DNA of 64,000 nucleotides. It comes from Rickettsiales bacterium (GTDB taxonomy: Bacteria > Pseudomonadota > Alphaproteobacteria > UBA8366). The translations under genes were made by a program, and so were the position numbers. Under the pieces are notes generated by a model. That model was not told the origin of the DNA, did no database searches, and saw only the letters and a list, made by a program, of their open reading frames with translations. Of this stretch, positions 14,530 to 41,786 are shown piece after piece; within the stretch, counting starts at the first letter, position 1, and each line of letters opens with the position of its first letter. The stretch is taken from the NCBI GenBank assembly GCA_038131165.1, contig JAYPOZ010000008.1:3891-67890 (forward strand). The letters run 5' to 3'.

Positions 14530-14607
14530 TCGGCGGAAGAATGTTGTGAACAAGTTGGACCGGCACGCGCACGAGAGCAGATCGGCGGAAGGGCGAACGA
14601 GAGTTTA

Positions 14608-16800: not shown

Positions 16801-17511
16801 TCAGAGGGCGGCGGTATGGCGCTCGAAATTGCGGGTGCAGATATCCTTCAGGACGGCCGGCATATACGAATAGTAGCGCCCCTTGCGCGATTGCCGCATG
16901 GCGTCGAAGCCGCCGCTTTCCTGAAACCGCTCCAGCGCGGACAGGGCCATGCCGACGGATAGGTCGCAGGCGGCCCGCCGAAGGTCGGCCAGCGGCATGC
17001 CGCGCGAGAGCGGCACGGGCCTGCGGTCGACGATGGCCCCGGTGTCCAGTTCCGGCTCGATCCTGTGCAGAGTCATCCGCAGGGCGTCGAAGTCGCGGTG
17101 ATAGATCGGCCAGAGATGGCAATCGAGGCCCCGGTACTCTTCCGGATCGCCATTGTGAAAATTCAGAATGCCGTCGCGGCAGCAATCCAACACTTCCGCG
17201 CCAAGCGGCCCGGTCCCGTAGACCAGCACCACTTCGGGCTTCAACGCGCGCAGCGAGGCGACCGCCGCGGGGTCGTTCAAGGTCTCGTGGCGTTCCGTGG
17301 CCGCGATATCGTCGAATCTGGGCGGCGACCCATTGTACCAATGCGCGCTCTCCCGCTCGTTGCGCGCCGTGTCCAGCGGATGGTCGGTCGGGATTGGCGG
17401 TGGCGGATCGCGGGTCTCGATCATGACTTTCGCGACGGCGAAGCGCTGCTGCAGCCGTTCGACGAAATAGCGGCGCCGTACCGAGCCCGTGGTGAGGACG
17501 GCTAGGCGCAT
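16801..17511 (-). CDS. Formyltransferase-fold protein (catalytic N-domain only)
   Basis: NFHNGDPEEYRGLD matches the N-x-H...RG motif and EPELDTGAIVD matches the catalytic Asp region. At 236 aa there is no Fmt C-terminal domain. Confidence 0.65.
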   Translation of the reverse strand: MRLAVLTTGSVRRRYFVERLQQRFAVAKVMIETRDPPPPIPTDHPLDTARNERESAHWYNGSPPRFDDIAATERHETLNDPAAVASLRALKPEVVLVYGTGPLGAEVLDCCRDGILNFHNGDPEEYRGLDCHLWPIYHRDFDALRMTLHRIEPELDTGAIVDRRPVPLSRGMPLADLRRAACDLSVGMALSALERFQESGGFDAMRQSRKGRYYSYMPAVLKDICTRNFERHTAAL

Positions 17512-17674: not shown

Positions 17675-18892
17675 ATGACTGATCGTATGGACGGTGTCAG
17701 GGTCCTGATCTACAGCCACGATACGTTTGGGCTGGGGCACCTGCGCCGGTGCCGCACCATCGCCCATGCCCTGGTCGAGAAATATAAGGGGCTCTCCGTC
17801 TTGATTCTTTCGGGCTCGCCGATCATCGGGAGTTTCGATTTCAGGGCGCGCGTCGATTTCGTCCGTATTCCGGGCGTGATCAAGCTCTATAACGGCGAAT
17901 ACACCTCGCTCGGGCTGCATCTGGACCTGTCGCAGACCATGGCGATCCGCAGCTCGATCATCCAGCATACGGCGGAGATTTTCGCGCCGGACCTTTTCAT
18001 CGTCGACAAGGAACCGCTGGGCCTGCGCGGAGAGCTGCAGGAGACGCTTGCCATGATGAAGGCGCGCGGGACGACCTTGGTGCTCGGGCTTCGGGACGTC
18101 ATGGACGAGCCCGGCCTGCTGCGGCGCGAATGGCAGTCGCGCGATTTGCTGCCGGTTCTCGAGAATCTCTATGACGAGATATGGGTCTATGGCCATAAGC
18201 GCTTCTGGGACCCGCTCGCGGAAATGGATGTGCCCGACTCCGTGCGCGATAAAATGATCTATACGGGATATCTGCGGCGCACGGTGCCGCAAGCGACGAA
18301 ACTGCCCCCCGCCGTGGATTTGGAGCAGCCTTATCTGCTGGTGACCGCCGGCGGCGGCGGCGACGGCGACCAGATGATGGACTGGGTGTTGCGCGCCTAC
18401 GAGACCGGCGCGGATCTGATGCGGGCCGTATTGGTCCTGGGGCCGTTCATGAAACCGGAAATGCAATCGGAAGTGCGCGAGCGCGCCGCAGCACTCGACG
18501 CGGTTCAGGTGCTGACCTTCGACAGCCATCTGGAAATTCTGATGGAAAAGGCGGCAGGCGTGGTCGCGATGGGCGGCTACAACACCTTTTGCGAGATATT
18601 GTCGCTCGATAAGCCGGCGCTGATCATGCCCCGGGTCGCACCGCGCAAGGAACAGCTGATCCGGGCGCAACGCGCGGCGGAACTGGGTATTGCCCGCATG
18701 TTCGATCCGTCGGAACCGCAGAGTGTCGACGGCTTTGTCGCTGCGTTGCGGCAGCTGCCCACGCAACCGCCACCGTCGCGATCGATGCTGCCGGGCTTCA
18801 TGGACGGCATCGAGAATGTGGGAGAGCTGGCGGGACGTCATTTTCATCCCAAGGCCGCCCGGCGATTGTCGCTGGTGGAAACCGGCGGGTAG
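17675..18892 (+). CDS. GT-B glycosyltransferase, MurG/GT28-C-like (COG4671-type as far as I recall)
   Basis: N-terminal VLIYSHDTFGLGHLRRCRTIAHAL and C-terminal GGYNTFCEILSLDKPALIMPR are present. Confidence 0.7.
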   Translation: MTDRMDGVRVLIYSHDTFGLGHLRRCRTIAHALVEKYKGLSVLILSGSPIIGSFDFRARVDFVRIPGVIKLYNGEYTSLGLHLDLSQTMAIRSSIIQHTAEIFAPDLFIVDKEPLGLRGELQETLAMMKARGTTLVLGLRDVMDEPGLLRREWQSRDLLPVLENLYDEIWVYGHKRFWDPLAEMDVPDSVRDKMIYTGYLRRTVPQATKLPPAVDLEQPYLLVTAGGGGDGDQMMDWVLRAYETGADLMRAVLVLGPFMKPEMQSEVRERAAALDAVQVLTFDSHLEILMEKAAGVVAMGGYNTFCEILSLDKPALIMPRVAPRKEQLIRAQRAAELGIARMFDPSEPQSVDGFVAALRQLPTQPPPSRSMLPGFMDGIENVGELAGRHFHPKAARRLSLVETGG

Positions 18893-18901
18893 GGCGCTCC
18901 C

Positions 18902-20173
18902 GTGTCGGGCACGATCGTCTTCGTCCTCAAGGGCTATCCGAGGCTCTCGGAAACCTTTATCGCACAGGAAATCGCGGCGCTCGAACAGCGTGGCCTGCCG
19001 ATCCAGATCGTATCGCTCAGGCATCCGACCGACGCCGAGAAGCACCCGGTCCACGACGAAATTTCCGCGCCCGTGCGATATCTTCCGGAGTATCTCCATC
19101 AGGAGCCGGTACGGGTCGTGCGGGCGTGGTTCCGGCAGCGCAAGGGCCCGCATTTCAGGGCCGCGATGGCGACATGGTGGCGGGATTTTAAGCGCGGCCC
19201 GTTCCGCAATCGGCTGCGGCATTTCGGACAGGCGATCGTGCTGGTCGACGAACTCGATAAGGGATGCCGGCATCTGCACGCCCATTTTCTGCACACGCCG
19301 GCGTCCGTCGCGCGCTACGCGGCGGTGCTGAGCGGCTTGAAGTGGAGCTGTTCGGCGCACGCAAAGGACATCTGGACCACGCCAGATTGGGAGAAGGCCG
19401 AGAAGCTCGGCGAAATGGAGTGGCTTGTCACGTGCACGGAAGTCGGCCGCGCCCATCTGGCGGCGCTGGCGCCCGACGAGAACCGCGTGGAATTGGTCTA
19501 TCATGGGCTGGATTTCAGCCGCTTCGCCGAATTGGAACGCCCGGCCCGGCGTAAGGACGGCAGCAATCCGGCGGACCCCTTGTTGATTCTCTCGGTGGGC
19601 CGTGCGGTGCCGAAGAAGGGCTACGATGTGTTGTTGCGCGCGCTTGCAGGGCTGCCCGGCTCGATGCATTGGCGGTTTATCCATATCGGCGGCGGCGCGA
19701 TATTGAGTTCCCTGAAGGAGCAGGCGCGCAAACTGGGGATCGAGGACAAGGTAACGTGGCGAGGCCCGCAAGCGCAGGAAGCGGTGCTGCGCGCCTATGG
19801 GGAAGCGGACATCTTCGTTTTGGCCAGCCGGATCGCCGAGAACGGCGACCGCGACGGGCTCCCGAATGTGCTGTTGGAAGCGCAAAGCCAGGGATTGCCG
19901 TGTGTCTCGACACGGGTGTCGGCCATTCCGGAATTGGTACGGGACGGAGAGACGGGGCTGCTCGTCCCCCAGGAGGACGACGTGGCACTACGGGGAGCGT
20001 TGGAAACCCTGATCACCGACCCGCCGCTCCGCCATCGTCTGGCGCGCGCGGGGTTTGCGCGGGTGCGCGAGGTGTTCGCGCACGAAGCGGGGATCGCGCG
20101 GCTTGCCGAAAAATTTGGGTTGGAGCCGCCACGGGGGTCGCTTAAGACCGGGTCTCTCAAAGAACGGGCATGA
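18902..20173 (+). CDS. Glycosyltransferase family 4 (group 1)
   Basis: GTG start 9 nt after the preceding stop. An EX7E region is present: GLPNVLLEAQSQGLPCVSTRVSAIPELVRDGETGLLVP. Confidence 0.85.
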   Translation: MSGTIVFVLKGYPRLSETFIAQEIAALEQRGLPIQIVSLRHPTDAEKHPVHDEISAPVRYLPEYLHQEPVRVVRAWFRQRKGPHFRAAMATWWRDFKRGPFRNRLRHFGQAIVLVDELDKGCRHLHAHFLHTPASVARYAAVLSGLKWSCSAHAKDIWTTPDWEKAEKLGEMEWLVTCTEVGRAHLAALAPDENRVELVYHGLDFSRFAELERPARRKDGSNPADPLLILSVGRAVPKKGYDVLLRALAGLPGSMHWRFIHIGGGAILSSLKEQARKLGIEDKVTWRGPQAQEAVLRAYGEADIFVLASRIAENGDRDGLPNVLLEAQSQGLPCVSTRVSAIPELVRDGETGLLVPQEDDVALRGALETLITDPPLRHRLARAGFARVREVFAHEAGIARLAEKFGLEPPRGSLKTGSLKERA

Positions 20174-20206
20174 CCGCGCTTTCGGACGAAGGGAGTTGAA
20201 GGCGAT

Positions 20207-21367
20207 TTGAGCGTCTCGATAAAAACCCGCGTCTTTTTCTACGTCCAGCATCTGCTCGGTATCGGCCACCTGCGCCGGGCGGCCCTCCTCTGCCGCGCGA
20301 TGTCCCTCGCGGGATACGACGTGGCCATGGCGATGGGCGGCATGCCGGTGCCCAATCTCGATGTGGGAGATTCCGAGATCGTCCAATTGCCGCCGCTGCG
20401 AATCGGAGACGGCGGATTCAACGATCTCGTCGATCAGGCAGGCGGAAAGGTCGACGAAGCCTGGAAGACCGCCCGCCGGGAGCGGCTGATCGCCGCTTTC
20501 GAGGCGCATGCGGCGCATGTCTTGATCACCGAGGCGTTTCCGTTCGGACGCCGGCAAATGCGGTTCGAATTGATGCCTCTGCTGGAGGCGGCGGCGCGGC
20601 AGGACCTGCCGCCTCTCGTCGTCTGTTCGGTGCGCGATTTGCTCAAATCGCGCCTCAAGCCCGGGCGGGCGGAAGAGACGGTCGATCTCATTACCGAGTA
20701 TTACGACCTGGTCATGGTTCACGGAGATCCGTCGTTCGCCGAGCTGCGGGAAACCTTTCCGGGGGCGGACGCGTTCGCGGCGAAGATTCGGTATACCGGT
20801 ATGGTCGCGCCGCCTAAGGCGGACGCGGGACGGCCTGCTTCCGATATGCCGGCGGTGCTGGTCTCCGCCGGTGGCGGCGCGGTGGGCGAGCGCCTGTTTC
20901 GGACGGCTTTGGAAGCGCGGCCGCTGAGCCGGTTCGGGTCGGCGTCATGGTGGCTGCTCGTCGGACCGAATTTCGCGGAGGAGAGCTTGGAGGAATTGCG
21001 GCGATCCGCGCCTGATGGAGTGCGGATCGAACGCTACCGGAAGGATTTTCCGGCGTTGCTGGAGAGCTGCGCGGTTTCGGTCTCGCAGGCGGGATACAAC
21101 ACCGTGGCCGATATCCTGCAATCGGGCGCGGCCGCCGTCTTGGTGCCGTTTGACCTGGATGGGGAGGACGAGCAGCCGAGACGGGCGGCGAAACTCGCGG
21201 CGCTGGGGCGCGTTCAATCGATCGTGGGCGACGAATTGACGCCGGAGAGCCTCGCGGATGCGATAGACCGCGCCACCGACGCGCCGGAGGTCGAATGTAC
21301 GTTGGACTTGTGCGGGGCGGCGCATTCCGTGGCCGTGCTGCGCCAGGCGATCGAGAAGCGCGGCTGA
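20207..21367 (+). CDS. GT-B glycosyltransferase, paralog of the 17675 gene
   Basis: TTG start. FFYVQHLLGIGHLRRAALLCRAM and AGYNTVADILQSGAAAVLVP are present. Confidence 0.7.
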   Translation: MSVSIKTRVFFYVQHLLGIGHLRRAALLCRAMSLAGYDVAMAMGGMPVPNLDVGDSEIVQLPPLRIGDGGFNDLVDQAGGKVDEAWKTARRERLIAAFEAHAAHVLITEAFPFGRRQMRFELMPLLEAAARQDLPPLVVCSVRDLLKSRLKPGRAEETVDLITEYYDLVMVHGDPSFAELRETFPGADAFAAKIRYTGMVAPPKADAGRPASDMPAVLVSAGGGAVGERLFRTALEARPLSRFGSASWWLLVGPNFAEESLEELRRSAPDGVRIERYRKDFPALLESCAVSVSQAGYNTVADILQSGAAAVLVPFDLDGEDEQPRRAAKLAALGRVQSIVGDELTPESLADAIDRATDAPEVECTLDLCGAAHSVAVLRQAIEKRG

Positions 21368-21369
21368 GG

Positions 21370-22110
21370 TTATTTTCGGCCGATCAGCATGAAGCGGGTA
21401 TATTTATCGAACTCCAACGCGCCGTCGAACAGGCGTTCGCCGAGCGGCACCTGCGCCTTAAAGCTTTCCAGGTCGGGGACGCAATTGATGTGCTCCGGCT
21501 CGGAGAAATAATCGTTCGACTGAAGGACCAGCAGGACACCTTCGGGCAGCCCCTCGAACCATTCCTCGAAACGGTCCAAATGCTCGCAACTGGTGTTGAT
21601 GATCAAATCTGGCGACGGCAGGGCGTTGCGACCGGCACGGACGCCTGCGGGACCATAGCTCAGCTCGACAATGTCTGCGGTGACCGGCGTGAACAGCCCG
21701 TCCTCCACGGCCGCCGCATTCAGGCTATTGGCAATGGGGGCGCATGCCGGATCGAGATCGAAGCTGACCACATGATCGACCTCGAAACGGGAATCGTGCA
21801 CGAAGAGCGCCGCCAGAACGCCGTACCAACCGCCAAGGACATGAACCGTGCCCAATTGTCCGCCATGGGCTTCGAAGAGCCCGTCGAGGAGCCAAAGCTT
21901 GGACGCGGTCTGGCGGCGATTAAGCGCATTTCCCAAACCGGAGGCGGGATAGGCAAGCGCTGTATTGCGGATATCCGAGATGAAGCGGCTTTCATAGAAC
22001 AGCGACAGCCCGTCCAGGATATCCTTGTAGAATTGATCCTTCTTCAGCATCGGGCCCGCTTTACGGGTCGCGCCGAAATTGTCTGTCCGTGCTGCAAGTG
22101 TACCCTCCAC
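21370..22110 (-). CDS. Hypothetical protein, possible Rossmann-fold methyltransferase
   Basis: VHVLGGWYGVLAA resembles a degenerate motif I, and VVSFDLDP resembles post-I. The start is uncertain (GTG 22110 or ATG 22050). It lies downstream of, and in the same orientation as, the cNMP-ABC gene. Confidence 0.45.
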   Translation of the reverse strand: MEGTLAARTDNFGATRKAGPMLKKDQFYKDILDGLSLFYESRFISDIRNTALAYPASGLGNALNRRQTASKLWLLDGLFEAHGGQLGTVHVLGGWYGVLAALFVHDSRFEVDHVVSFDLDPACAPIANSLNAAAVEDGLFTPVTADIVELSYGPAGVRAGRNALPSPDLIINTSCEHLDRFEEWFEGLPEGVLLVLQSNDYFSEPEHINCVPDLESFKAQVPLGERLFDGALEFDKYTRFMLIGRK

Positions 22111-22215: not shown

Positions 22216-25200
22216 CTAGGCAGCGTCCTGAAGTTGTTCCGTCATGCTGTAAAGGCGGTCGCTCATGACACGGGCGATATGCGCCGCGACATGTGGACTG
22301 CCTTCGAGCAAGTCGAGGAACAGATCCTTCTTCAGCTCCAGTACGGTCACGTCCGTATTCGCGCGGACCGTGGCGGAACGGGGCTTCGTACTCAGCAATG
22401 CCATGTCTCCCACCAACTCGTTCTGCTCGAGGTGGTTGACGATGAGCTCTTCGTCTCCCTCTCCGATAATGATATCGACGGCGCCGTCGAGAATGACGTA
22501 GGCCGCGGTTCCGGGGTCGCCTTGATGGAACAGATCCTCGCCTTTGGCGTAAGTCAGACGCTCGCTGGTAAAGGCCAGCAGCTTGAGCCGCGAGGGATCC
22601 ATTTCGGAAAAGAGGGGCACTTGTCCCAAAGCGGAAATTTCCGCATTGAGGATGGTGCCGCCGTCTTCGACATCGCTCTCGACTGCACCGACGGCGGACG
22701 GCAACGGTGCCTCCTGCTCCGAAATGCGTTCTTCGATACGGCCGTTGCGAAGGACCAGTACTTGGTCGAACTCGCTCGCGTCCGGCATTTCGCTGTCGAT
22801 CCAGATGATGGTCGTCTCCGGTAGCAGCGCGTTGATTTTCAATCGGATGCGGTCGCGAGTCTCCCGGTCGTGAGCGCTCAGAGCTTCGTTGATCACCAGG
22901 ATTTCCGGTCGTTTCACGATGCTGCGCAGTAACACGATGCTTTGGCGCGCCGCCAAAGGTATCCGCCGTCCGCCAATTCCAACGTCGAAGTCCGCGGCCG
23001 CAAGCACGACCTCGGTTGTCAAATCCATCTCGTCGAGCACGTCGCGAAGGATTTGATCGACCTTCTCTTCCGCCTGCGGCCTTCCGGCGTTGACGCGGCC
23101 CATGATAAGATTGGATCGAAGCGGAAGCTGTGAGTTGAATTCCTCGGGATTGAAGAAGGAAATCGCATCCCGCCGATCTTCCGGAAGCTGATCCCGGAAT
23201 CGGCGCCGAGCGTCCAGAATGCGCGACTGCATATCGTCATCGATATGGCCGAGGCGATGGCGTTCCACAACCAATTCGAACGTCAACGAAATAAGGCGGG
23301 CATTATCCTCTTCGTTCAACGCATCGTTCCCGTCGCGTTTCGCCAGAGCGACAATTCGTTTCAATTCCTGTAAGGAATCGTCGTCGACGAAATTGAACTG
23401 CTCGAAGATCGGAGCATCCGACGACATACCGTCGAACATATCGATCAGAGTGGCGGCAACTTGAAGGCCGATGTCCCGGAACCTGTTCGTCAGATCGCAG
23501 GCATCCAAAATCGAGCGAACGAAATCGTTGCCGCCAAGGTTCTTGAGCGAGAACTGTCCGTCGACCGAAACGCCGAAAATCAGGTTCGCACCGACGGTTG
23601 CACTGACATTGTACTCGTCGAAATCGAACGGATGGATAAGGTCGGCCAGGGTGCTGTCGTCCCGCATGCGCTCCAGGACGCGATGCCGCGCACGTACGAT
23701 ATTGGCAGCCAGTTCCGGATTCGCATCGGCATCGATGGTCATGTTCATGGCGCGGCCATACATGAAATCTTCGAGTTCGACCGCATGCAGCGTTTGATAC
23801 CACCAAGCCAATAATTCCTCGTGGCTGGAGACCCTGGCATCGCCATAGTCGATCCATTCGGCTTGAATGTCGTGGGCGCTGTTGCCCGAGGAGGCGGCTT
23901 CAATGCGGTCTTTTTCGCGTTCAGGGTCGTCATCCGGAAGGACGACCGGCTGATGTTTCAGGCCGTAGAACACATTGTAGCCGATGGTGCCGTCGAACAC
24001 GTAGGAATCGGGGCCGGCATAGCCGACGCGCTTGCCGATCACCGCCTCGTGCAACTGAGTGTAATCGTGCTCCCCGACCGAGATGCGTCCCTGCGACGGT
24101 TGAAGCAGCCGGGTAAGGAGATGCGCCAGGTTGTCTCTACCGCTGCCGCCAGCGACGACGGCGATTCGGCTGCCGGGCGGCGCGTCGAAGGAAATGCCGT
24201 CGAGCGACTTTACGCCGTCCTCGTCTGAAATGGAAACATTGCTTACGGCCAACCCGGCTCCCAGGTTTGGAATTGTCTCGGGCCGATCCGTCAACAAGAG
24301 CGATTCGGGTATCATATCGGCCGGATCGAACTGTTCGGTCACCTGCTGGTATTTGATTTTTGCGTCCATCATCCGCTGGTAGTACTTCAGCAATTCCTTC
24401 CAGGGCTGCATCAGCTGGCTATAGGCGCCGAGAACGGCGACCAGCTGCCCGATATCGAGCTTGCCTTCGAGAATGAGCACGCCGCCCACCGAATAGAACA
24501 GCAGCGGCGTCAGCTTCAGCAGGAAATTATTGAGGAACTTCAGGAACGCCTTGTTCTGATAGATCTTCATGCGGACTTTGAAGATTCCGGTCAGGTGATG
24601 CGTGAAATCCGCCAGGGAGAACGCCGCCGTGTCGTGAGTATGGATGTCGTTGACGCCGGAAACCGCTTCGCTGATGCGTCCCGCGACACCCCGGATGCGG
24701 ACCACGCGTTCCTTGGCCAGGAGATTTATTCGCTTTTGCAGTTTCGGGATGATGTAGGCTTGCAGCGGAATGATCGAAATGCTCGCCAGACCCATAATCG
24801 GGTCCTGGACGAAGACAAAGACGAGGACGGTCAGCATGGTGCCGCCTTGAAAAAGCGGCAGTTCGACGGCGTCCGCGAAGAATTGGCTGAACGGCTCGAC
24901 CTCAGCGGTGATCATCGAAGTGATTTCGCCTTGCGAAGTCTTTTGAAACTGCTTGAGCGGGAAACGGTGGATGCGTTCGAAGAGTTGATAGCGCAAGCGG
25001 CGCAGGAGGCGCTCCGAGGTAATGCCCTTAAAGACGAACAGCGACATCATGATGCCGCCGTTCACGATCAGGAGGATGAGAAAGAGACCGCACAGCGTCA
25101 GCAGATATTCCTGCTGATCGAATTCGATTCCGAGATAAGTGCGCGGAAAAGGGATGGCATCGGGTTTCGAGCCCAGGGCATCGTTGACGATAATCTTCGG

Positions 25201-25311
25201 TAGTTCCAGCGAGTAGTAGAGAAGCGGAAAAGATGCGACCGTCACGCACAGAATGACGAGCTGATATCCCCGACTATAACGCCAGATAAAACCGTAAAGT
25301 CCCTTTTCCAC
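22216..25311 (-). CDS. ABC-exporter-fold membrane protein with degenerate NBD and C-terminal cyclic-nucleotide-binding domain
   Basis: GTG start with GAGAGGA 8 nt upstream. There is an N-terminal six-helix type-I exporter TMD. The NBD-like region carries AGGSGRDNL, IGGRR, ILVINEALSAHD and IIWIDSEM. The C-terminal region FHQGDPGTAAYVILDGAVDI...ELVGDMALLSTKPRSATVRA is CAP/cNMP-like. Confidence 0.8.
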   Translation of the reverse strand: MEKGLYGFIWRYSRGYQLVILCVTVASFPLLYYSLELPKIIVNDALGSKPDAIPFPRTYLGIEFDQQEYLLTLCGLFLILLIVNGGIMMSLFVFKGITSERLLRRLRYQLFERIHRFPLKQFQKTSQGEITSMITAEVEPFSQFFADAVELPLFQGGTMLTVLVFVFVQDPIMGLASISIIPLQAYIIPKLQKRINLLAKERVVRIRGVAGRISEAVSGVNDIHTHDTAAFSLADFTHHLTGIFKVRMKIYQNKAFLKFLNNFLLKLTPLLFYSVGGVLILEGKLDIGQLVAVLGAYSQLMQPWKELLKYYQRMMDAKIKYQQVTEQFDPADMIPESLLLTDRPETIPNLGAGLAVSNVSISDEDGVKSLDGISFDAPPGSRIAVVAGGSGRDNLAHLLTRLLQPSQGRISVGEHDYTQLHEAVIGKRVGYAGPDSYVFDGTIGYNVFYGLKHQPVVLPDDDPEREKDRIEAASSGNSAHDIQAEWIDYGDARVSSHEELLAWWYQTLHAVELEDFMYGRAMNMTIDADANPELAANIVRARHRVLERMRDDSTLADLIHPFDFDEYNVSATVGANLIFGVSVDGQFSLKNLGGNDFVRSILDACDLTNRFRDIGLQVAATLIDMFDGMSSDAPIFEQFNFVDDDSLQELKRIVALAKRDGNDALNEEDNARLISLTFELVVERHRLGHIDDDMQSRILDARRRFRDQLPEDRRDAISFFNPEEFNSQLPLRSNLIMGRVNAGRPQAEEKVDQILRDVLDEMDLTTEVVLAAADFDVGIGGRRIPLAARQSIVLLRSIVKRPEILVINEALSAHDRETRDRIRLKINALLPETTIIWIDSEMPDASEFDQVLVLRNGRIEERISEQEAPLPSAVGAVESDVEDGGTILNAEISALGQVPLFSEMDPSRLKLLAFTSERLTYAKGEDLFHQGDPGTAAYVILDGAVDIIIGEGDEELIVNHLEQNELVGDMALLSTKPRSATVRANTDVTVLELKKDLFLDLLEGSPHVAAHIARVMSDRLYSMTEQLQDAA

Positions 25312-25692: not shown

Positions 25693-25983
25693 ATGCCGAT
25701 ATATATTAGCTTAGTGAACTATACCGAGTCGGGTCTGCGCGACATTAAGAAATCGCCGGATCGGTTGGCGGCGGCTCGCCGCGAGGCCAAGGAATTAGGG
25801 GGCACAATCGATAAAGTGTACCTGACAATGGGCGATTTTGATTTAATGACGATCGCCGATTTTCCGGACGATGCGACGGCGGCGACCTTTGCGCTGCGTC
25901 TCGGCGCGCAAGGAAATGCGCGCACAAAAACCATGAAAGCCTTCCCCGAGGAAGCTTTCATAGAAATCGTCAAGGCGATCTAG
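25693..25983 (+). CDS. GYD domain-containing protein
   Basis: 96 aa. MPIYISLVNYTESGL...YLTMGDFDLMTIADFPDD matches the GYD-family pattern. Confidence 0.8.
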   Translation: MPIYISLVNYTESGLRDIKKSPDRLAAARREAKELGGTIDKVYLTMGDFDLMTIADFPDDATAATFALRLGAQGNARTKTMKAFPEEAFIEIVKAI

Positions 25984-25995: not shown

Positions 25996-28900
25996 TCACT
26001 CGGCGGCGACGTCAGATTTCGCCTGTGGGTTCCTGAATTCTGCCAGTAGTTCGATTTCACGCGCTTTGGCCTCGGAGATGCTTTTCTCCTTGATATGTCC
26101 GTAGCCTCGGATTTGTTCCGGCAGGGAGGCGATTTCGACGGCGACGCCATGATTTGCCGGCGTCAGGTCGCGCAGCAGGCTTTCGGTCGTCGCCTCGTAT
26201 TCTTTTATCAGCTGACGTTCCCGCTTGCGTTCTTGGGTATATCCAAAGGCGTCCAGCGGCGTTCCCCGCAAAATTTTCAGGCGCGCTAAGGCACGAAACG
26301 CCGGCAGAATCCATTCCCCGACTTCCATCTTTCTAGGTACGCCCGTATCCGGGTCGCGCCGGGCAAACATCGGCGGCGCCAGATGGAACTTCAGTTTATA
26401 CCCTGGCTCGAACTTATCGCCGACTTCCGCCAGGAAATCCGTTTCCGTATGCAGCCGGGCAACTTCGTACTCGTCCTTATAGGCGAGCAATTTGAAATAG
26501 TAGCGGGCGACCGCCAGTGTCAACGCTTCGGCACCCTGCACGCGATGTGCCTCGGACGTCTGTACCTTCACGACAAAGTCCTTATAGCGCCGCGCGAGCG
26601 CCCGGCCTTGATACCCGGTGAGGAAGTCGACGCGGCGCTCAACATGACTTACGAGAGTATCCGCTTGCTTTGGTTCGTCGATGCCGACGTCTTCGTCGCT
26701 GCTCGCCATCTTTCGGACAAGCGCCAGATCGTGTGCAGCCCGCCGGCCCCAGGTAAAGGCCTGCTTGTTCGCTTCGACCGCCACACCATTCAGCTCAATG
26801 GCCTGGAAGAGCGCCTCGCGCGAGACCGGCACGAGGCCCTTTTGCCAGGCGCAGCCGAGCATGAACATGTTGCTGGCGATCGAGTTACCCAGCAATTCGG
26901 TTGCAAGCTTGGTCGCTTCGAGAAAATCCGTCCTGTCGCTGCCGACGACTTTTGCGATGGTTTGGTGCAGTTCGTCGCCTGGAAAAGACATATCGGGATC
27001 GCGGGTGAAATCGCCTGTGATCGTCTCGTGACTGTTCACGACGGCACGGGTCGTGCCGGGCGCGACTTTGGAAAGCGCGTCGAAACCGGCCGCGGTGACG
27101 ATATCGCAGCCCAGCATCATATCGGCGCCGCCCGCCGCGATCCGCACCGCGTGCAGATCTTCCGGACGATCTGCGATCCGGATATGGGTGAGCACGGCAC
27201 CGCCCTTCTGCGCCAGGCCAACCATGTCCAACACCGAACAGCCCTTGCCTTCGATATGGGCCGCCATGGCGACAATGGCGCCGATCGTCACCACGCCGGT
27301 CCCGCCGATGCCGGTGACCAGCATTCCAAAAGGTTCCGCCGTGCCGGGGAGGACCGGTTCCGGCAGAGCCTCGAAAATATCGGGAACCGAGATTTCCTGG
27401 CCCGACGTCCGGGGCTTTTTCAGGTCTGTGCCATGGACGGTCACGAAACTGGGGCAGAAGCCGTTTACGCAAGAATAATCCTTGTTGCAGCTCGATTGGT
27501 CGATGGTTCTCTTGCGGCCGAATTCCGTTTCCTTCGGCACGACCGAGAGGCAATTCGATTTAACCGAGCAATCACCGCACCCTTCGCAAACCAGATCGTT
27601 GATCATCACGCGCTTGAGGGGGTCCGGAAAGGTGCCGCGCCGGCGGCGGCGGCGTTTCTCCGCGGCACAGGTCTGGTCGTAGACGAACACGGTCACGCCC
27701 TTTTCGGTGCGCAACTCCTTCTGCACCTTCATCAAATCGTCGCGGTGGAAAATCTTGGTGCCTTTGGCGAATCCCGCGTCGCTCGGATATTTGTCCGGCT
27801 CGTCGGTTACGACGACGACCCGCGTGGCGCCTTCCGCCATCATCTGTTGCGTGATGCGCGGCACGGTCAACGGCCCGTCGTGGGGTTGTCCGCCGGTCAT
27901 CGCGACGGCGTCGTTGAACAGAATCTTATAGGTCATGTTCACGCCGGCGGCGATGGATTGCCGGATCGCCATCAAGCCGGAGTGATAGTAGGTGCCGTCG
28001 CCGATATTGGCGAAGACATGCTCTTCGTCGGTAAAGGGCGAGATGCCGACCCAGGGAACTCCCTCCGCCCCCATATGGGTGAAGGTTGCGGTGTTTCGCT
28101 CCATCCACTGCGCCATGAAATGGCAGCCGATTCCCGACAAAGCCCGGCTGCCGTCCGGCACCTTGGTCGAGGAGTTGTGCGGACAGCCGGAACAGAAATA
28201 AGGCGTCCGCTGGAACCCTTCGGCATTGCTTTGCAAGGCCTGTTCCTGGGATTCAAGATATTTGACCCGGTCGTCGAGCTGACGGCTGGTATGGAATTGG
28301 GTCAGCCGCTTGGCGATCACGCGCGCGATCTGCGTGGGCGTCAGCTCGCCGATCGACGGCAGAATCCATTCGCCCGCCTCGTCGAATTTTCCGATCACCC
28401 GCGGCCGCCGGTCCGCGCGCCAATTGTAGAGTTGTTCCTTCAGCTGATTTTCGATCAGCGCGCGCTTCTCCTCGACGACCAGCACTTCCTCCAGGCCTTC
28501 ACAGAACTGGCGAATGCCCTCGCGCTCGAGCGGCCAGGTCATGCCCACCTTGTAAATCGATAGACCGATGGCGCGGGCGTAATCCTCGTTAATGCCCAGT
28601 TCTTCGAGCGCTTGGCGCACGTCCAGATAGGACTTGCCGCAGGTCACGATGCCGAAACGCCGGTTGGGGCCGTCCAGCACGGCCTTGTCCAGTTTGTTGG
28701 CCCGCGCGAACGCCAGGACCGCGTTGATCTTGTAGCGGTGAAGCCGTTCCTCCATTTCCAGCGGAGTATCCGGATAGCGGATGCTCAATCCCCCTTCCGG
28801 CATCGCGAAATCGTCGGGCCGGCGAATATCGACCCGGTGCGGATCGACATAGACAGAGGCCGAACTGTCGACCGTCTCGGCGATCAATTTGAACGCCGTC

Positions 28901-38722: not shown

Positions 38723-39982
38723 TCAGCCGGCGGCCGTGATTCTTGCGACCTGTTCGTCGCGGGCGAAGATTTCGATCTCCTCGCCGACGCCGCGCAACGG
38801 ATGCCGCCCGACGGACCGCCAGCCATCCGGCGCGAGGTCGACGAAAGCCCGGCTCGCCAAGGCGTCGCGGCCGACCGTCTTGGTCAATGATTCGATTCGC
38901 GCCGCTTCGTTCGCGGCGGCGCCGATGACGCTGAACTCGACCCGCGCCGGGACGCCGATATTGCCGTAGAGGACCTCGCCCACATGCAGGCCGATGCCGA
39001 AGGAAATTTCCGGCTTGCCGTCTCGGGCGCGCCCGGCATTGGCGCCCTTGAGCCGTGCCGTCGCCTCTCGCAGAGCCGACGTCGCGGCGGCGGCGGCCTC
39101 CTCGGCGGTCATTTCGCCCTCGCCGATCGGGAAAATGCCGAGCACGGCGTCGCCGATAAACCGCAAGACTTCGCCGCCGTTGGCGATGACCGCGCCGGCC
39201 GTGACCTCGAAATAGTCGTTCAGGGTGGCGAGGAACTGCGCCTTGGACATGGATTCGGCCAAGGGCGTCGAGCCCCGCAGGTCGCTGAACCAGATCACGG
39301 CATTGATTTCCTCGCCGTCGCCGAGCTTGATCTGTCCCTGCAGGACGCGCTTGCCCGCGCTGCGGCCGAGATAGGCATCGAGAACGTTCCGCGCTGTCTG
39401 TTCCTTGATGGTGACCTTGCAGGCGACGGCCAGGCGCTTCTGAATTCGCATCAGCGCCGCGATGTCCCGGTCGCTGAATCCCGAGGGCCGGTCCGTCAGC
39501 CAGGAGGCTATCATCCCTTCTGTGTTCGAATATGCGGTTGGCGTTTCGGAAAATGCGGACGCATTGATTAGATAATCGGTCGCGCCTTCGTCCCGAAAGG
39601 TTTCCAGCACCGAAAAATCGACCAGCGCGTCGTCTCCGGTAAGCCGGCGGCGCAAGAAGGGCGTGCCGGACTCGAGGACAACGGCAATCGGGCTTTTCTG
39701 GAAAGCTTCGGTGTTCAGCATCTCGCCGTGCAGGAAGCTTTCCGAAACCAGCCCTTCGCCCGGCTTCCAGACCAGGCTCGTTCCGGCGAAGAGCGGGTGC
39801 AGGGTGCTGAAGCCGATCGAGCCGCGCGAGATCGGAATCCCGGCGGCGCGAAGCCGATCGCAACAGCCGCCGAAAAGCGTCTCGATATCGGCGCCGGTGA
39901 GCGCGCGCGTGATCAGCCAGTCCGCGACCTGATCGATCAGCGTGTCGCCGTAACTCAAAGCTTGGTGGTCGAGTTCGCTCAT
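38723..39982 (-). CDS. Class III adenylate/guanylate cyclase with uncharacterised N-terminal domain
   Basis: The cyclase core VIWFSDLRGSTPLAE...RFIGDAVLGIFP...GLHVGEVLYGNIG is present. The alternative upstream ATG at 40018 would overlap the acyl-CoA ligase gene by 29 nt. Confidence 0.85.
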   Translation of the reverse strand: MSELDHQALSYGDTLIDQVADWLITRALTGADIETLFGGCCDRLRAAGIPISRGSIGFSTLHPLFAGTSLVWKPGEGLVSESFLHGEMLNTEAFQKSPIAVVLESGTPFLRRRLTGDDALVDFSVLETFRDEGATDYLINASAFSETPTAYSNTEGMIASWLTDRPSGFSDRDIAALMRIQKRLAVACKVTIKEQTARNVLDAYLGRSAGKRVLQGQIKLGDGEEINAVIWFSDLRGSTPLAESMSKAQFLATLNDYFEVTAGAVIANGGEVLRFIGDAVLGIFPIGEGEMTAEEAAAAATSALREATARLKGANAGRARDGKPEISFGIGLHVGEVLYGNIGVPARVEFSVIGAAANEAARIESLTKTVGRDALASRAFVDLAPDGWRSVGRHPLRGVGEEIEIFARDEQVARITAAG

Positions 39983-39989
39983 CCGAAGC

Positions 39990-41786
39990 CTATCCGCGGT
40001 AGAGCGCTTCGAGCGCATCTCCGAACCGGGCCTTAATCATGTGCCGGCGAATCTTCATGCTCGGGGTGAGCATCTCGTTGTCGATGCTGAAGGGCTCCGC
40101 GGTCAGGATGAACTTCCGAACCCGCTCGATCGTATTGAGCCGTCCGTTGATCCGGTCGAGCGCCTCGCGGACAGCGGTGCTGAACGCCTCGTTCTCGACC
40201 AATTCGGAAAGATCGGGCGCCGTGCCGTTCGCTTTCGCCCAATCGTGGGCGAAGTCGGTATCGGGGACGATCAGCGCCACCAAATGCGGGCGCTTGTCGC
40301 CATAGACCATCGCCTGGGCGATCTCGGGCTCCGCCGTCAGCATGCCTTCGACCCGTTGCGGGGCCACATTGTCGCCGCCCGAATTGACGATGATGTCCTT
40401 CTTGCGGTCGGTGATGCGGATATAGCCGTCTTCGTCGATCTCGCCGATGTCGCCGGTGTGGAGCCAGCCGTCCTGAATCGCTTCGGAGGTCGCTTCCTCG
40501 TTGTTCCAATATCCCTGCATGACCAACTCGCCGCGCACCAATATCTCGCCGTCTTCGGCGATCCGCACCTCGACGTCCTTCATCGGCGGTCCGACGGTGC
40601 GCATCTTGTTCGGATGGGGCGGATTGCAGCTGACGACCGGCGCCGATTCCGTCTGGCCGTATCCTTGCAGGATCGTCAGGCCGAGGCCGGTGAAGAAGAC
40701 CCCGATGTCGTAATTGAGCGGTGCCCCGCCCGAGACGAAGGCCTTCAGGCGGCCGCCGAAGCGTTCCTTCACCTTGCTGCGCACCAGCTTGTCCATGAGG
40801 CCGTCGAGCAGCGAATCGATGGGGCCGAGGGAACCCGGCGCCTCGTAGCGGCGGCGGCCGAGGTCGACCGCTTTCATGAACATCTTTCTCTTCAGGCTGC
40901 CGCTCTGTTCCACGCCGCGGATGATGCGGCCATGCATCGCTTCGTATAGGCGCGGCACGGCGGTGAGGATGGTCGGGCGGACTTCAGAGATGTTGCCTGT
41001 CAGTTTTTCGACGCCTTCCGCGTAATAGATTTGCGCGCCGATGGAGATCGGCAGGAACTGGCCCGCCGTATGCTCGTAGGAATGCGAGAGCGGCAGGAAC
41101 GAGAGAAAAATCTCCCGCCCCTCCTCGAAGCCCGGCAGTTGCTCGAGAAATTCATGTGCGCCCATGCAATTGCAAAGGATGGCGCCGTGGCTCAGCATCA
41201 CGCCCTTCGGCGTGCCGGAGGTGCCGGATGTGTAGATCAGGCAAGATGTCGCGTTGCGGGGAATTTCCGTCGGTTTCGGCAGCGCCGTGGGGTCCGCCGT
41301 CTCGCCGCGCAGGAGCGCTTCCTCCCAGGTCAGGGTCTCGAACGGATGACTGCCCTCCGGCAGGGCGTCGATGGAGATGACAAAGCCGAGATCGGGGCAT
41401 TGTATCGCCGCGGCGCAAACTCGGTCGGCAAGGGCCTTGCTCGAGACGATCACGCCCTTGGCCCCGCTGTCGGACAGAATGTGCAGATGGTCTTCAACCG
41501 TGTTCGTGGTATAGGCCGGAACCGAAATGCCGCCCGCCGCCATGACCGCGATATCCGCCATCATCCATTCGGGGCGGTTCTCCGCCACCAAGCCCACCCG
41601 GTCGCCGGCTTCGACGCCGAGCGAGCGAAGCGCCCGGGCCAGACGGGTGACCGTATCGGACGTCTCCCGCCAGCTGGTCGAGGACCACTCGCCGTTCGAT
41701 TTCGCCCAAAGAAACGGCGCGTCGCCATAATGCTCCACGCGGTCGTAGAACATTTCGACCAGATTCGGCATTGCCTGATAGTCCAT
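39990..41786 (-). CDS. Long-chain fatty-acid--CoA ligase (AMP-dependent synthetase)
   Basis: The AMP-binding motif LIYTSGTSGTPKGV and the GWLHTGDIGEIDEDGYIRITDRKKD motif are present. The start is the internal ATG of track ORF 39990..41870. Confidence 0.9.
   Translation of the reverse strand: MDYQAMPNLVEMFYDRVEHYGDAPFLWAKSNGEWSSTSWRETSDTVTRLARALRSLGVEAGDRVGLVAENRPEWMMADIAVMAAGGISVPAYTTNTVEDHLHILSDSGAKGVIVSSKALADRVCAAAIQCPDLGFVISIDALPEGSHPFETLTWEEALLRGETADPTALPKPTEIPRNATSCLIYTSGTSGTPKGVMLSHGAILCNCMGAHEFLEQLPGFEEGREIFLSFLPLSHSYEHTAGQFLPISIGAQIYYAEGVEKLTGNISEVRPTILTAVPRLYEAMHGRIIRGVEQSGSLKRKMFMKAVDLGRRRYEAPGSLGPIDSLLDGLMDKLVRSKVKERFGGRLKAFVSGGAPLNYDIGVFFTGLGLTILQGYGQTESAPVVSCNPPHPNKMRTVGPPMKDVEVRIAEDGEILVRGELVMQGYWNNEEATSEAIQDGWLHTGDIGEIDEDGYIRITDRKKDIIVNSGGDNVAPQRVEGMLTAEPEIAQAMVYGDKRPHLVALIVPDTDFAHDWAKANGTAPDLSELVENEAFSTAVREALDRINGRLNTIERVRKFILTAEPFSIDNEMLTPSMKIRRHMIKARFGDALEALYRG

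What the first reader, a model, noticed from the sequence alone, without database searches (positions are those of the whole stretch)
22216..25311. ABC-exporter-fold protein with a dead ATP site, a ~300-aa NBD insertion and a C-terminal cNMP-binding domain
The N-terminal ~330 aa look like a type-I ABC exporter TMD. In the following NBD-like region, every catalytic motif I can align by eye is altered:
- The Walker A position reads AGGSGRDNL, with no GK[ST].
- The signature position reads IGGRR instead of LSGGQ.
- Walker B reads ILVINEAL, so the Asp is replaced by Asn.
- The H-loop position reads IIWIDSEM, with no His.

About 300 residues of unrecognised sequence are inserted between the Walker A and signature regions. 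The last ~130 aa resemble a CAP-type cyclic-nucleotide-binding beta-roll (FHQGDPGTAAYVILDGAVDI...ELVGDMALLSTKPRSATVRA).

A homodimer would have two non-catalytic sites. The protein may therefore be a cNMP-gated conduit or regulator rather than an ATP-driven pump. It heads an operon with a methyltransferase-like gene and is convergent on the glycosyltransferase operon. By eye its codons are more A/T-rich than those of its neighbours, which may indicate horizontal acquisition. A class III cyclase lies 13 kb away.
Basis: partly seen in the sequence, partly recalled or inferred. Interest (0 to 1): 0.7.

Follow-up and report, generated by a model that had tools for sequence, protein, structure and literature searches.

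The report
ATPase-dead, cAMP-sensing ABC exporter relative
This gene encodes a membrane protein built like an ATP-driven ABC exporter, but it has lost every ATP-hydrolysis motif, carries a duplicated piece of its motor domain and a cyclic-nucleotide sensor, and belongs to a widespread, unstudied family that may show how this fold can work without burning ATP.

Summary
ORF 22216-25311 (-) encodes a 1031-aa protein: a type I ABC-exporter TMD, an NBD-like domain, and an intact CAP-type cNMP-binding domain (CNB).

- **Motifs:** Alignment to solved exporters shows every ATP-site motif is non-canonical.
- **Insert:** It is not foreign sequence. Residues ~536-695 are an internal duplicate of the canonical Q-loop-to-D-loop segment (~696-840). 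HMM cross-search hits 241-245 of 245 members; decoys give none.
- **Family:** It occurs in at least 569 species, mostly Alphaproteobacteria, and has no functional annotation or paper. None of 245 members keeps a full catalytic set. All domains are under purifying selection, and the TMD is the most conserved part.
- **Context:** In 29 of 80 loci the CNB is a separate downstream gene. Class III cyclases lie within 8 kb in 12 loci. A three-gene GT-B glycosyltransferase cluster is linked in 43 of 81. The downstream gene has a class I methyltransferase fold.
- **HGT:** Not supported.

Best reading: a homodimeric pseudo-ATPase of the ABC-exporter fold, controlled by cAMP, that acts with the linked glycoconjugate pathway. 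It is a new variant of a known kind. Mechanism and substrate are inferred.

The parts
22216..25311 (-). Whole ORF, 1031 aa: ABC-exporter-fold pseudo-ATPase with a C-terminal CNB domain
   Evidence: AF2 model: mean pLDDT 80.9. Foldseek hits to TmrAB, Atm1, TM287/288 and the cyclic-glucan transporter at E ~1e-15.
24322..25311 (-). Transmembrane domain (residues 1-330): six long helices, PF00664. It is the most conserved part of the family.
   Evidence: Mean pairwise identity 0.51, and 61 of 330 columns are >=90% conserved. dN ~0.05 against orthologs.
24016..24264 (-). N-terminal part of the NBD-like core (residues 350-432), including the degenerate P-loop AGGSGRDN (24130-24153)
   Evidence: Alignment to ABCB4 and Rv1273c/72c. 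Family census: R 145 / K 69, followed by D/E in 186 of 245. Coordinates verified.
23707..24015 (-). Unit 1 (residues 433-535): Q-loop position without Gln (GYAGPDSY), an N-x-x-x-G motif, and a family-specific segment with near-invariant G476, N477 and W486
   Evidence: Similarity to units 2 and 3 is only weak: HHalign scores 23-27 against a shuffled maximum of 16, and few HMM hits.
23227..23706 (-). Unit 2 (residues 536-695): internal duplicate of the Q-loop -> helical subdomain -> signature/D-loop segment. It forms the core of the 'insert'.
   Evidence: HHalign unit 2 vs unit 3: probability 96.6%, E = 6e-10, score 63.8, against a shuffled maximum of 18.8. HMM cross-search: 241/245 and 245/245 hits at E <= 1e-3, with no decoy hits. 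No Pfam or PDB sequence hit on its own. Found only in this family.
22912..23226 (-). Unit 3 (residues 696-800): the canonical-position helical subdomain, with the degenerate signature IPLAA (22948-22962)
   Evidence: Aligned to the signature regions of ABCB4, Rv1273c/72c and CydD. Coordinates verified.
22717..22911 (-). C-terminal part of the NBD-like core (residues 801-865): Walker B ILVINEA (D->N), D-loop SAHD, H-loop position IWIDSEM (His->Ser)
22642..22716 (-). Flexible linker (residues 866-890)
   Evidence: pLDDT < 50. Pairwise identity 0.19. dN/dS ~0.7. This is where the gene is split in 29 other loci.
22219..22641 (-). CAP-type cyclic-nucleotide-binding domain (residues 891-1031), with phosphate-binding cassette GDMALLSTKPRSAT (22369-22410)
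   Evidence: PF00027, E = 1e-21. Alignments to PKG, PKA-R and CRP. Cassette census.
21370..22050 (-). Downstream co-oriented gene (226 aa from the internal ATG; the longest ORF runs to 22110): class I SAM-methyltransferase fold with no Pfam family
   Evidence: No terminator found in the gap. 1900 homologs, mostly 226 aa. AF2 pLDDT 94.8. Foldseek hits to NodS, BioC, Coq5 and RebM at E ~1e-8. Adjacent to the ABC-like gene in the 10-11 closest loci.
17675..21367 (+). Convergent three-gene GT-B glycosyltransferase operon: GT28C-like 17675-18892, GT4 18902-20173, GT28C-like 20207-21367. It is linked to the family across rearrangements.
   Evidence: Pfam and NCBIfam. Linked in 43 of 80 loci by tblastn and 43 of 81 by ORF clustering, in both fused (22) and split (21) forms and in different orientations.
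38723..40018 (-). Class III nucleotide cyclase (431 aa), the probable source of the CNB ligand
   Evidence: PF00211, E = 2.4e-8. Full-length homolog (34-38% identity) of cyclases encoded directly after the CNB gene in L033, L041, L043, L050, L063, L064 and L067.

Best explanation
The gene encodes a half-transporter of the type I (type IV fold) ABC-exporter architecture. It most likely works as a homodimer whose two nucleotide-binding sites are both non-catalytic, making it a pseudo-ATPase.

Its NBD-like domain was enlarged by an internal tandem duplication of the Q-loop-to-D-loop (helical subdomain) segment, and it is followed by a functional cyclic-nucleotide-binding domain. I propose that cAMP, made by an associated class III cyclase, binds the CNB domain. 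That binding, rather than an ATP binding and hydrolysis cycle, would control how the two cytoplasmic pseudo-NBD modules associate, and so set the conformation of the highly conserved TMD. The TMD would then permit ATP-independent translocation or flipping of a product of the co-localised GT-B, phosphatase, deacetylase-like and methyltransferase genes. That product is probably a modified glycolipid or small glycoside.

Shown here:
- The fold.
- Loss of the catalytic motifs.
- The duplication.
- An intact CNB cassette.
- Purifying selection on every domain.
- Natural CNB split and fusion.
- Genomic linkage to cyclases and to the GT cluster.

Inferred:
- Homodimer.
- Absence of ATPase activity.
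- cAMP as the ligand.
- Gating of the TMD.
- The identity and direction of the cargo.
For: - **Motif loss:** The A-loop, Walker A, Q-loop, signature, Walker B Asp and H-loop are all non-canonical in residue-level alignment to solved exporters. None of 245 non-redundant members has more than 4 of 7 catalytic hallmarks, and none has the signature GG.
- **Not decay:** The ORF is intact in at least 569 species. dN is 0.05-0.2 in all structured domains against 0.35-0.55 in the linker, with saturated dS.
- **Inverted conservation:** TMD 0.51 against NBD core 0.34-0.35 mean pairwise identity. This points to a conserved TMD function and a relaxed or repurposed NBD.
- **Duplication:**
- **CNB:** The cassette has canonical Gly, Arg, Ser and Ala-Thr. 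CNB is either fused or encoded as a separate gene 15-66 nt downstream, often behind a GGAGG-type ribosome-binding site, in 29 loci. That is a Rosetta-stone link.
- **Cyclases:** Present within 8 kb in 12 of 80 loci and directly operonic in 7. The window's cyclase is a full-length homolog of those. The operonic cyclases carry the Lys/Thr pair typical of class IIIb adenylate cyclases (interpreted from my own knowledge).
- **GT linkage:** 43 of 81 loci, in both fused and split forms and in varied orientations.
- **No partner:** No canonical ABC half-transporter partner is found in the window or conserved across loci.
Against: - No biochemical data exist, so 'dead' is inferred from sequence alone.
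- The substitutions are patterned rather than random. [K/R][D/E] in the P-loop co-varies with Walker B Asn (odds ratio 14.6, not corrected for phylogeny), and the Walker B Glu/Asp and the D-loop are mostly kept. The site could therefore be remodelled to bind a nucleotide or another ligand.
- Some split-form members keep a canonical Walker A plus Walker B DE (for example P0263).
- GT linkage is absent in about half of the loci, including Ruegeria and Azospirillum.
- No classical polysaccharide-export partners were seen.
- Dimer geometry and CNB-NBD contacts could not be examined.
- HetC's CNB domain binds ppGpp, not cAMP (PMC10986499), so the ligand is not certain.
Confidence: 0.5

Rival explanations
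1. Remodelled but still nucleotide-dependent exporter. The non-canonical site ([K/R][D/E] P-loop, Walker B N-E, D-loop) would still bind, and perhaps slowly hydrolyse, ATP or another nucleotide, with the metal-binding carboxylate moved from Walker B to Walker A. cNMP would then only modulate an energised pump.
For: - The substitutions are conserved and co-vary: acid/Asn in 150 of 164 against S-T/Asp in 15 of 26.
- Walker B Glu/Asp is retained in 191 of 245, and the D-loop Asp in 197 of 245.
- The glycine-rich loop is kept.
- A few members have a canonical Walker A and Walker B.
- The NBD is under purifying selection.
Against: - In the window protein the P-loop is one residue short and has Arg for Lys.
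- The A-loop aromatic residue, Q-loop Gln, signature Ser-Gly-Gly and H-loop His are all missing.
- No member has a complete motif set.
- The NBD core is less conserved than the TMD, the reverse of active ABC transporters.
- The covariation was not corrected for phylogeny.
Confidence: 0.2
2. Pure sensor or regulator with no transport, similar to SUR. The ABC fold would act as a cAMP-responsive membrane scaffold that switches the associated glycosyltransferases or another partner on or off.
For: - Loss of the energy-coupling motifs.
- The CNB and cyclase association.
- GT linkage.
- Precedent, from my own knowledge: SUR1/2 are ABC-fold regulators.
Against: - The TMD, including a periplasm-facing TM1 motif LPKxIxNxA, is the most conserved region. 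That is easier to explain by substrate handling.
- No conserved membrane partner gene was found.
Confidence: 0.15
3. Obligate heterodimer with a canonical ABC half-transporter encoded elsewhere. This protein would contribute a fully degenerate NBD, as in TM287/288- or TmrAB-type asymmetric exporters.
For: Asymmetric exporters with one degenerate site are common (PMC7756269).
Against: - No ABC exporter gene is conserved next to the family in 80 loci, and none is in the window.
- This protein's signature motif is also degenerate, so even the partner's site would lack LSGGQ.
- Known degenerate subunits keep Walker A Lys-Ser/Thr and bind ATP (PMC7756269).
Confidence: 0.08
4. cAMP-gated cAMP efflux valve. 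The protein would release the cyclic nucleotide made by the adjacent cyclase once it accumulates.
For: ABC-CNB-cyclase operons occur in 7 loci. The CNB would sense cytoplasmic cAMP.
Against: - It does not explain the recurrent GT, phosphatase and methyltransferase linkage.
- Most loci have no adjacent cyclase.
Confidence: 0.07
5. Decaying pseudogene, or a recently acquired foreign gene.
For: All motifs are degenerate. GC is slightly lower than in neighbouring genes.
Against: - The ORF is intact in at least 569 species.
- dN/dS is about 0.14 or lower in all structured domains.
- Synteny is conserved with relatives.
- GC3 z is only -1.4, and orthologs show no consistent deficit.
Confidence: 0.01

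Closest known systems
Homodimeric type I ABC exporters (MsbA, Sav1866, Atm1, cyclic-glucan transporter Cgt/NdvA)
   Same: - Six-helix TMD and the TMD-NBD half-transporter order.
- Best sequence and fold matches.
- Several of these move lipid-linked or glycan cargo made by cytoplasmic glycosyltransferases.
   Different: - All ATP-site motifs are non-canonical.
- The NBD carries a ~260-aa insert that includes a duplicated helical subdomain.
- There is a C-terminal CNB domain.
- The TMD is more conserved than the NBD.
Asymmetric ABC exporters with one degenerate site (TM287/288, TmrAB, BmrCD, CFTR, SUR; review PMC7756269)
   Same: They tolerate non-catalytic nucleotide-binding sites. CFTR and SUR show that the fold can serve as a channel or a regulator.
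   Different: - In those proteins only one site is degenerate. It still binds ATP through an intact Walker A and is paired with an active site.
- Here every motif of the only subunit is altered, so a homodimer would have two non-canonical sites.
HetC of Nostoc PCC 7120 and related PCAT or NHLM-type exporters with a cNMP-binding-like domain (PMC10986499; NCBIfam TIGR03797 as a weak hit)
   Same: An ABC exporter fused to a PF00027 domain that is needed for function.
   Different: - HetC's domain is N-terminal, precedes a C39 peptidase, and binds ppGpp rather than cAMP in vitro.
- HetC's ATPase glutamate is essential.
- It has no NBD insert.
C-terminal regulatory domains on ABC NBDs (MalK, MetN, ModC; CBS domains of OpuA). 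This comparison rests on my own knowledge.
   Same: A ligand-binding domain attached C-terminally to the NBD that controls NBD dimerisation.
   Different: Those proteins are importer ATPases with active sites. Their regulatory domains are not CNB domains.
NodS, NodB, NodC and NodIJ logic of Nod-factor synthesis. This is an analogy for the neighbourhood only.
   Same: - Glycosyltransferases, a CE4-like deacetylase (present in 13 loci), a NodS-like class I methyltransferase fold and an ABC-type membrane protein are encoded together.
   Different: - The genes are not orthologous. The GTs here are GT-B (GT4 and GT28C-like), not GT2.
- NodIJ is a type II (ABC-2) exporter with an active ATPase.

Membership tests
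Type I (type IV fold) ABC exporter half-transporter | Six-helix ABC_membrane TMD (PF00664) with long cytoplasmic extensions | tested here: met
   PF00664, E = 1e-26. Six long helices in the AF2 model. Foldseek TMt ~0.6 to TmrAB, Atm1 and TM287/288.
Type I (type IV fold) ABC exporter half-transporter | NBD of the ABC_tran type following the TMD | tested here: met
   PF00005 just above cut-off (27.1 against 25 bits) and truncated. Two-stretch alignments to exporter NBDs.
Type I (type IV fold) ABC exporter half-transporter | Walker A GxxGxGK[ST] | tested here: not met
   Reads A-GGSGRDN: one residue short, K->R, S->D. Across the family, R 145 / K 69 and D/E 186 / S-T 27 of 245.
Type I (type IV fold) ABC exporter half-transporter | Signature motif LSGGQ | tested here: not met
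   Reads IPLAA in the window protein. LSxxQ at best elsewhere, and the GG pair is never present.
Type I (type IV fold) ABC exporter half-transporter | Walker B hhhhDE | tested here: not met
   Reads ILVINE: Asp->Asn (N in 178 of 245). The catalytic-position Glu is retained.
Type I (type IV fold) ABC exporter half-transporter | Q-loop Gln, H-loop His and A-loop aromatic residue | tested here: not met
   Gln->Pro, His->Ser, and the A-loop Tyr position is deleted. Across the family, Q is present in 14 and H in about 12 of 245.
Type I (type IV fold) ABC exporter half-transporter | ATP hydrolysis drives transport | not testable with these tools
   Needs ATPase and transport assays.
ABC exporters with a single degenerate site (TM287/288 or CFTR type) | One consensus site retained, and the degenerate subunit keeps an ATP-binding Walker A | tested here: not met
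   All motifs of the only subunit are altered. No partner gene is conserved. Criteria taken from PMC7756269.
CAP/CRP-type cyclic-nucleotide-binding domain (PF00027) | Beta-roll domain matching PF00027 above the gathering score | tested here: met
   76.7 bits against a cut-off of 27.5. 180 PDB CNB chains match at E <= 1e-3. The AF2 model shows beta-strands plus a C-terminal helix.
CAP/CRP-type cyclic-nucleotide-binding domain (PF00027) | Phosphate-binding cassette G-E-x-A-L...P-R-[ST]-A-[ST] | tested here: met
   Reads GDMALLSTKPRSAT: Arg, Ser, Ala and Thr present, with a conservative Glu->Asp. Most of the family has Glu.
CAP/CRP-type cyclic-nucleotide-binding domain (PF00027) | Binds cAMP or cGMP | not testable with these tools
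   Needs ITC or DRaCALA. HetC's PF00027 domain binds ppGpp instead (PMC10986499).
HetC-like CNB-PCAT exporters | N-terminal CNB, a C39 peptidase domain and a catalytically essential NBD | tested here: not met
   The CNB is C-terminal, there is no peptidase domain, and the NBD is degenerate.
Class I SAM-dependent methyltransferase (downstream 226-aa gene) | Rossmann-like seven-strand methyltransferase fold | tested here: met
   AF2 pLDDT 94.8. Foldseek hits to NodS, BioC, Coq5 and RebM at E ~1e-8, TMq 0.5-0.6.
Class I SAM-dependent methyltransferase (downstream 226-aa gene) | SAM-binding motif I (GxGxG) and an acidic post-I residue, recognisable by sequence models | tested here: inconclusive
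   No Pfam or NCBIfam hit. The conserved GGWYG stretch and the invariant D98 and D100 are candidates only.

The most novel reading that the evidence does not exclude
A widespread bacterial family shows that the ABC-exporter fold can run without ATP. The ATP-driven NBD 'engine' has been turned into a ligand-operated switch: a pseudo-NBD enlarged by duplication of its helical subdomain, driven by cAMP through a fused or separately encoded CNB domain. This switch would gate passive translocation or flipping of a glycolipid or glycoside made by a co-evolving GT-B cluster. That would be a second-messenger-gated, ATP-independent ABC 'transporter'.
Probability: 0.35. Interest if true: 0.85.

Novelty: new variant of a known kind. 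Interest (0 to 1): 0.68.

Why it matters
ABC exporters are defined by ATP-driven NBD dimerisation. Known 'degenerate' sites always come singly, still bind ATP and are paired with an active site. A large family under purifying selection in which the only subunit has lost every catalytic hallmark would be a natural experiment on what the ABC-exporter fold can do without ATP hydrolysis. This family has also duplicated part of its NBD and recruited a cyclic-nucleotide sensor.

It would also add a new output class for bacterial cAMP signalling, acting directly on a membrane translocator instead of through CRP-type transcription. And it would flag an uncharacterised glycoconjugate pathway that is common in marine and soil Alphaproteobacteria. 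Cultured hosts such as Ruegeria, Azospirillum, Marivibrio, Inquilinus and Granulosicoccus make it directly testable.

Tried and rejected
- **Foreign domain in the insert:** Rejected. There are no Pfam or PDB sequence hits. Unit 2 is homologous to unit 3 of the same protein.
- **Clean triplication:** Only partly supported. Unit 1 shares a short, weak similarity with units 2 and 3.
- **Catalytically intact subgroup carrying the insert:** None found. The maximum is 4 of 7 hallmarks.
- **Insert in other protein contexts:** None. All 608 representative hits carry it at the same position in this family.
- **HGT:** Not supported.
- **Pseudogene:** Rejected.
- **Homology between the 226-aa gene and the Methyltransf_17 genes found at the same slot elsewhere:** None. 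HHalign probability is 0.4%.
- **Sequence-profile search of the 226-aa family against PDB:** Nothing significant. Only the fold search resolved it.
- **Riboswitch, sRNA or palindrome in the 381-nt upstream region:** Nothing above chance.
- **Literature:** No paper on the family or on the GT families.

Full report
**Observation**

The minus-strand ORF 22216-25311 is intact. It encodes 1031 aa, starts at GTG and has an SD-like GAGAGG upstream.

Pfam finds three domains:
- ABC_membrane, residues 71-303, E = 1e-26.
- A weak and truncated ABC_tran match, residues 370-489, 27 bits, covering profile positions 1-104 of 137.
- cNMP_binding, residues 920-1003, E = 1e-21.

NCBIfam exporter models (MsbA best, E = 7e-46) match in two separate stretches, ~48-453 and ~716-865, all far below the family cut-offs.

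An AlphaFold2 model built from a 32-sequence family alignment is confident: mean pLDDT 80.9, with the NBD and insert mostly above 85. It shows six long TM helices, and only the 866-885 linker and two TMD loops are disordered. Foldseek against the PDB returns type I/IV exporters (TmrAB, Atm1, TM287/288, the cyclic-glucan transporter, Rv1273c/72c) at E ~1e-15 and TMt ~0.6.

**ATP-site motifs**

Residue-level alignments to ABCB4 and Rv1273c/72c show the following.

| Motif | Canonical | Window protein |
|---|---|---|
| A-loop | aromatic residue | deleted |
| Walker A | GSSGCGKST | A-GGSGRDN (one residue shorter, K->R, S->D) |
| Q-loop | Gln | Pro |
| Signature | LSGGQ | IPLAA |
| Walker B | ILLLDEA | ILVINEA (D->N, Glu kept) |
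| D-loop | SALD | SAHD |
| H-loop | His | Ser |

I compiled 245 non-redundant full-length family members. None has more than 4 of 7 catalytic hallmarks, and 170 have 0 or 1. The signature Gly-Gly pair is never present. Different lineages retain different subsets, and the window's clade is the most degenerate.

The dominant state is patterned: [K/R][D/E] in the P-loop together with Walker B Asn. The two co-vary (150 of 164 against 15 of 26, odds ratio 14.6). This count is not corrected for phylogeny. It leaves open a remodelled site rather than a simply decayed one.

**The insert**

The secondary structure of the model repeats a beta / short helix / beta / helices pattern three times, near residues 429, 559 and 717. 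Each unit has a near-invariant Asn at the equivalent position, followed by Gly in units 2 and 3: N446; N576 and G580; N734 and G738.

Unit 2 against unit 3:
- Profile-profile comparison of family sub-alignments shows that unit 2 (536-695) is homologous to unit 3 (696-~840). Unit 3 is the segment that aligns to canonical Q-loop -> helical subdomain -> signature -> Walker B -> D-loop.
- HHalign gives probability 96.6%, E = 6e-10 and score 63.8 over 135 columns. The maximum over 30 column-shuffled controls is 18.8.
- An HMM built from unit 2 alone hits unit-3 segments in 241 of 245 members at E <= 1e-3 (best 2e-16). The reciprocal search hits 245 of 245. Reversed and shuffled decoys give none.

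Unit 1 (433-535) shares only a short, weak similarity with the other two units. It also contains a family-specific stretch with near-invariant G476, N477 and W486.

Unit 2 alone matches no Pfam family and no PDB sequence. A search of residues 455-700 against 1.84 billion representative proteins finds 608 clusters. In full-length hits the insert always lies at ~455-720 of proteins of 870-1070 aa.

So the 'unrecognised ~300 aa' is largely an internal tandem duplication of part of the NBD, and it is specific to this family. Its length is constant at 240-280 aa.

**Family and selection**

- More than 120 full-length homologs share 41-100% identity, and none has a functional name.
They are mainly Rhodospirillales, Hyphomicrobiales and Rhodobacterales (Ruegeria, Tateyamaria), along with Azospirillum, Inquilinus, Marivibrio and Pacificispira, plus gammaproteobacterial Granulosicoccus and Ectothiorhodospiraceae.
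- Against the closest orthologous loci, synonymous sites are saturated. dN is 0.05 in the TMD, 0.07-0.09 in the CNB, 0.08-0.2 in the NBD and units, and 0.35-0.55 in the linker. Every structured domain is therefore under purifying selection.
- Unlike ordinary ABC transporters, the TMD is the most conserved part. Its mean pairwise identity is 0.51 and 61 of 330 columns are >=90% conserved, against 0.34-0.37 for the NBD core and units. A motif at the predicted periplasmic end of TM1, LPKxIxNxA, is among the most conserved stretches.

**CNB domain and cyclase**

The phosphate-binding cassette GDMALLSTKPRSAT aligns with the cassettes of PKG, PKA-R and CRP. It keeps Gly, Arg, Ser and Ala-Thr, with a conservative Glu->Asp. 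Most of the family has Glu.

In 29 of 80 loci the ABC-like ORF ends at the linker. A separate CNB gene of ~150-160 aa follows after 15-66 nt, often behind a GGAGG-type ribosome-binding site. This natural split-or-fusion pattern argues for a functional pair.

Class III cyclase genes lie within 8 kb in 12 loci. In 7 loci they directly follow the CNB gene on the same strand. The window's cyclase at 38723-40018 (PF00211) is a full-length homolog of those at 34-38% identity. The operonic cyclases carry the Lys/Thr substrate pair that, to my knowledge, marks class IIIb adenylate cyclases. The window enzyme has Arg/Ser at those positions.

**Neighbourhood**

- The gene is followed, after 165 nt with no detectable terminator, by a 226-aa gene. 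This gene has 1900 homologs and no Pfam family. Its model (pLDDT 94.8) has a class I SAM-methyltransferase fold, with top hits NodS, BioC, Coq5 and RebM.
- This gene accompanies the ABC-like gene only in the 10-11 closest loci. In 10 other loci an unrelated small methyltransferase (PF12692) occupies the same slot.
- The pair converges on a three-gene GT-B operon: GT28C-like, GT4, GT28C-like. Homologs of these GTs are linked to the family in 43 of 81 loci, in both fused (22) and split (21) forms and in different orientations.
- The GT cluster is often accompanied by a histidine phosphatase (16 loci) and a CE4-like 'WWRDDDA' protein (13 loci).
- The GT4's nearest solved relatives are BshA, MshA, PimB' and sucrose-phosphate synthase. 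These enzymes act on small-molecule or lipid acceptors, not on polymers. The likely product is therefore a modified glycolipid or small glycoside rather than a classical polysaccharide. This is an inference.
- Other recurrent neighbours are housekeeping genes.
- No canonical ABC exporter partner is conserved near the family, and none is present in the window.

**HGT claim**

The gene's GC z-score is -2.0 and its GC3 z-score is -1.4 relative to 45 window genes, with GC2 of only 0.36. Orthologs in eight other genomes have GC3 z-scores from -0.3 to +1.6. The IOR-(GYD)-ABC-MTase-GT synteny is shared with relatives at 73-82% identity. Recent acquisition is not supported.

**Interpretation**

The best-supported reading is a homodimeric pseudo-ATPase of the ABC-exporter fold. 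Its cytoplasmic module, an NBD enlarged by duplication plus a CNB, responds to cAMP and controls a strongly conserved TMD, in a functional unit with a glycoconjugate pathway.

Rivals:
- A remodelled but nucleotide-dependent site (0.2).
- A non-transporting regulator of the SUR type (0.15).
- A heterodimer with an unlinked canonical partner (0.08).
- A cAMP efflux valve (0.07).
- A pseudogene or HGT relic (0.01).

**Comparison with known systems**

- The review of degenerate sites describes only exporters with a single degenerate, ATP-binding site paired with an active one (PMC7756269).
- HetC is the published CNB-bearing ABC exporter. Its CNB is N-terminal and binds ppGpp, and its ATPase is essential (PMC10986499).
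- No paper on this family was found.

The protein fails the catalytic-motif criteria for membership as a functional ABC ATPase while keeping the fold. I therefore class it as a new variant of a known kind.

**Limits**

- All mechanistic steps are inferred from sequence, models and gene context.

Noticed in passing
window 21367-21370: The GT28C-like gene (+) and the methyltransferase-fold gene (-) end only 2 nt apart, stop to stop. No intrinsic terminator was detected between the convergent operons.
   Followed up: partly
L016, L017, L021, L030, L031, L035, L056, L058, L060, L061 (downstream of the CNB gene), compared with window 21370-22050: A PF12692 (Methyltransf_17) gene occupies the slot after the CNB in 10 loci. 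The window clade has an unrelated class I methyltransferase-fold gene there instead. This looks like non-orthologous replacement of a methyltransferase in the same module.
   Followed up: partly
window 21370-22050 (-): The 226-aa methyltransferase-fold protein has about 1900 database homologs but no Pfam or NCBIfam model. It has a distinctive set of invariant residues (GGWYG, NTSCEH, QSN, HxNC).
   Followed up: partly
L024 696-2558, L025 202-1764, L036 6047-7978 (and two further loci): A ~620-aa protein with an N-terminal Cys cluster and a HAD/FkbH-like middle region lies 31 nt upstream of the ABC-like gene on the same strand in 5 loci. It was not run against Pfam.
   Followed up: no
L040, L044, L052, L057, L065 (Granulosicoccus): The gammaproteobacterial members have a longer ABC part (~1050 aa) plus a separate CNB gene. 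The extra ~160 residues were not located or characterised.
   Followed up: no
window residues 37-45 of the ORF (nt ~25177-25203): The motif LPKxIxNxA, at the predicted periplasmic end of TM1, is one of the most conserved stretches in the family. That is unusual for an exporter's outward-facing loop region. Some clades carry a 15-20 aa insertion just after it.
   Followed up: no
window 25693-25983 (+) and 25996-29487 (-): A GYD-domain gene is divergent from the ABC-like gene. Next to it is a 1163-aa 2-oxoacid:ferredoxin oxidoreductase-like gene (TPP_enzyme_C, POR, DUF6537). The large gene is syntenic in L001, L002 and L006.
   Followed up: partly
window 10007-16775 (+): An Asp/Asn beta-hydroxylase-like gene is followed by an Opp/Dpp-type ABC importer operon: a fused double ATPase, an SBP_bac_5 protein and two permeases. 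GC3 is also slightly lower here than the window mean.
   Followed up: no
window 16801-17511 (-): A formyltransferase-like gene (PF00551, weak ArnA/Fmt similarity) is divergent from the GT operon. It may belong to the same sugar-modification pathway.
   Followed up: no
window 6280-8148 (-): A TPR plus GT41 (O-GlcNAc-transferase-like) protein is encoded about 14 kb from the locus.
   Followed up: no
window 23322-23407 (+): A sub-threshold Rfam match to mir-981 (24 bits against a gathering score of 51) lies inside the coding region. I treat it as chance.
   Followed up: yes
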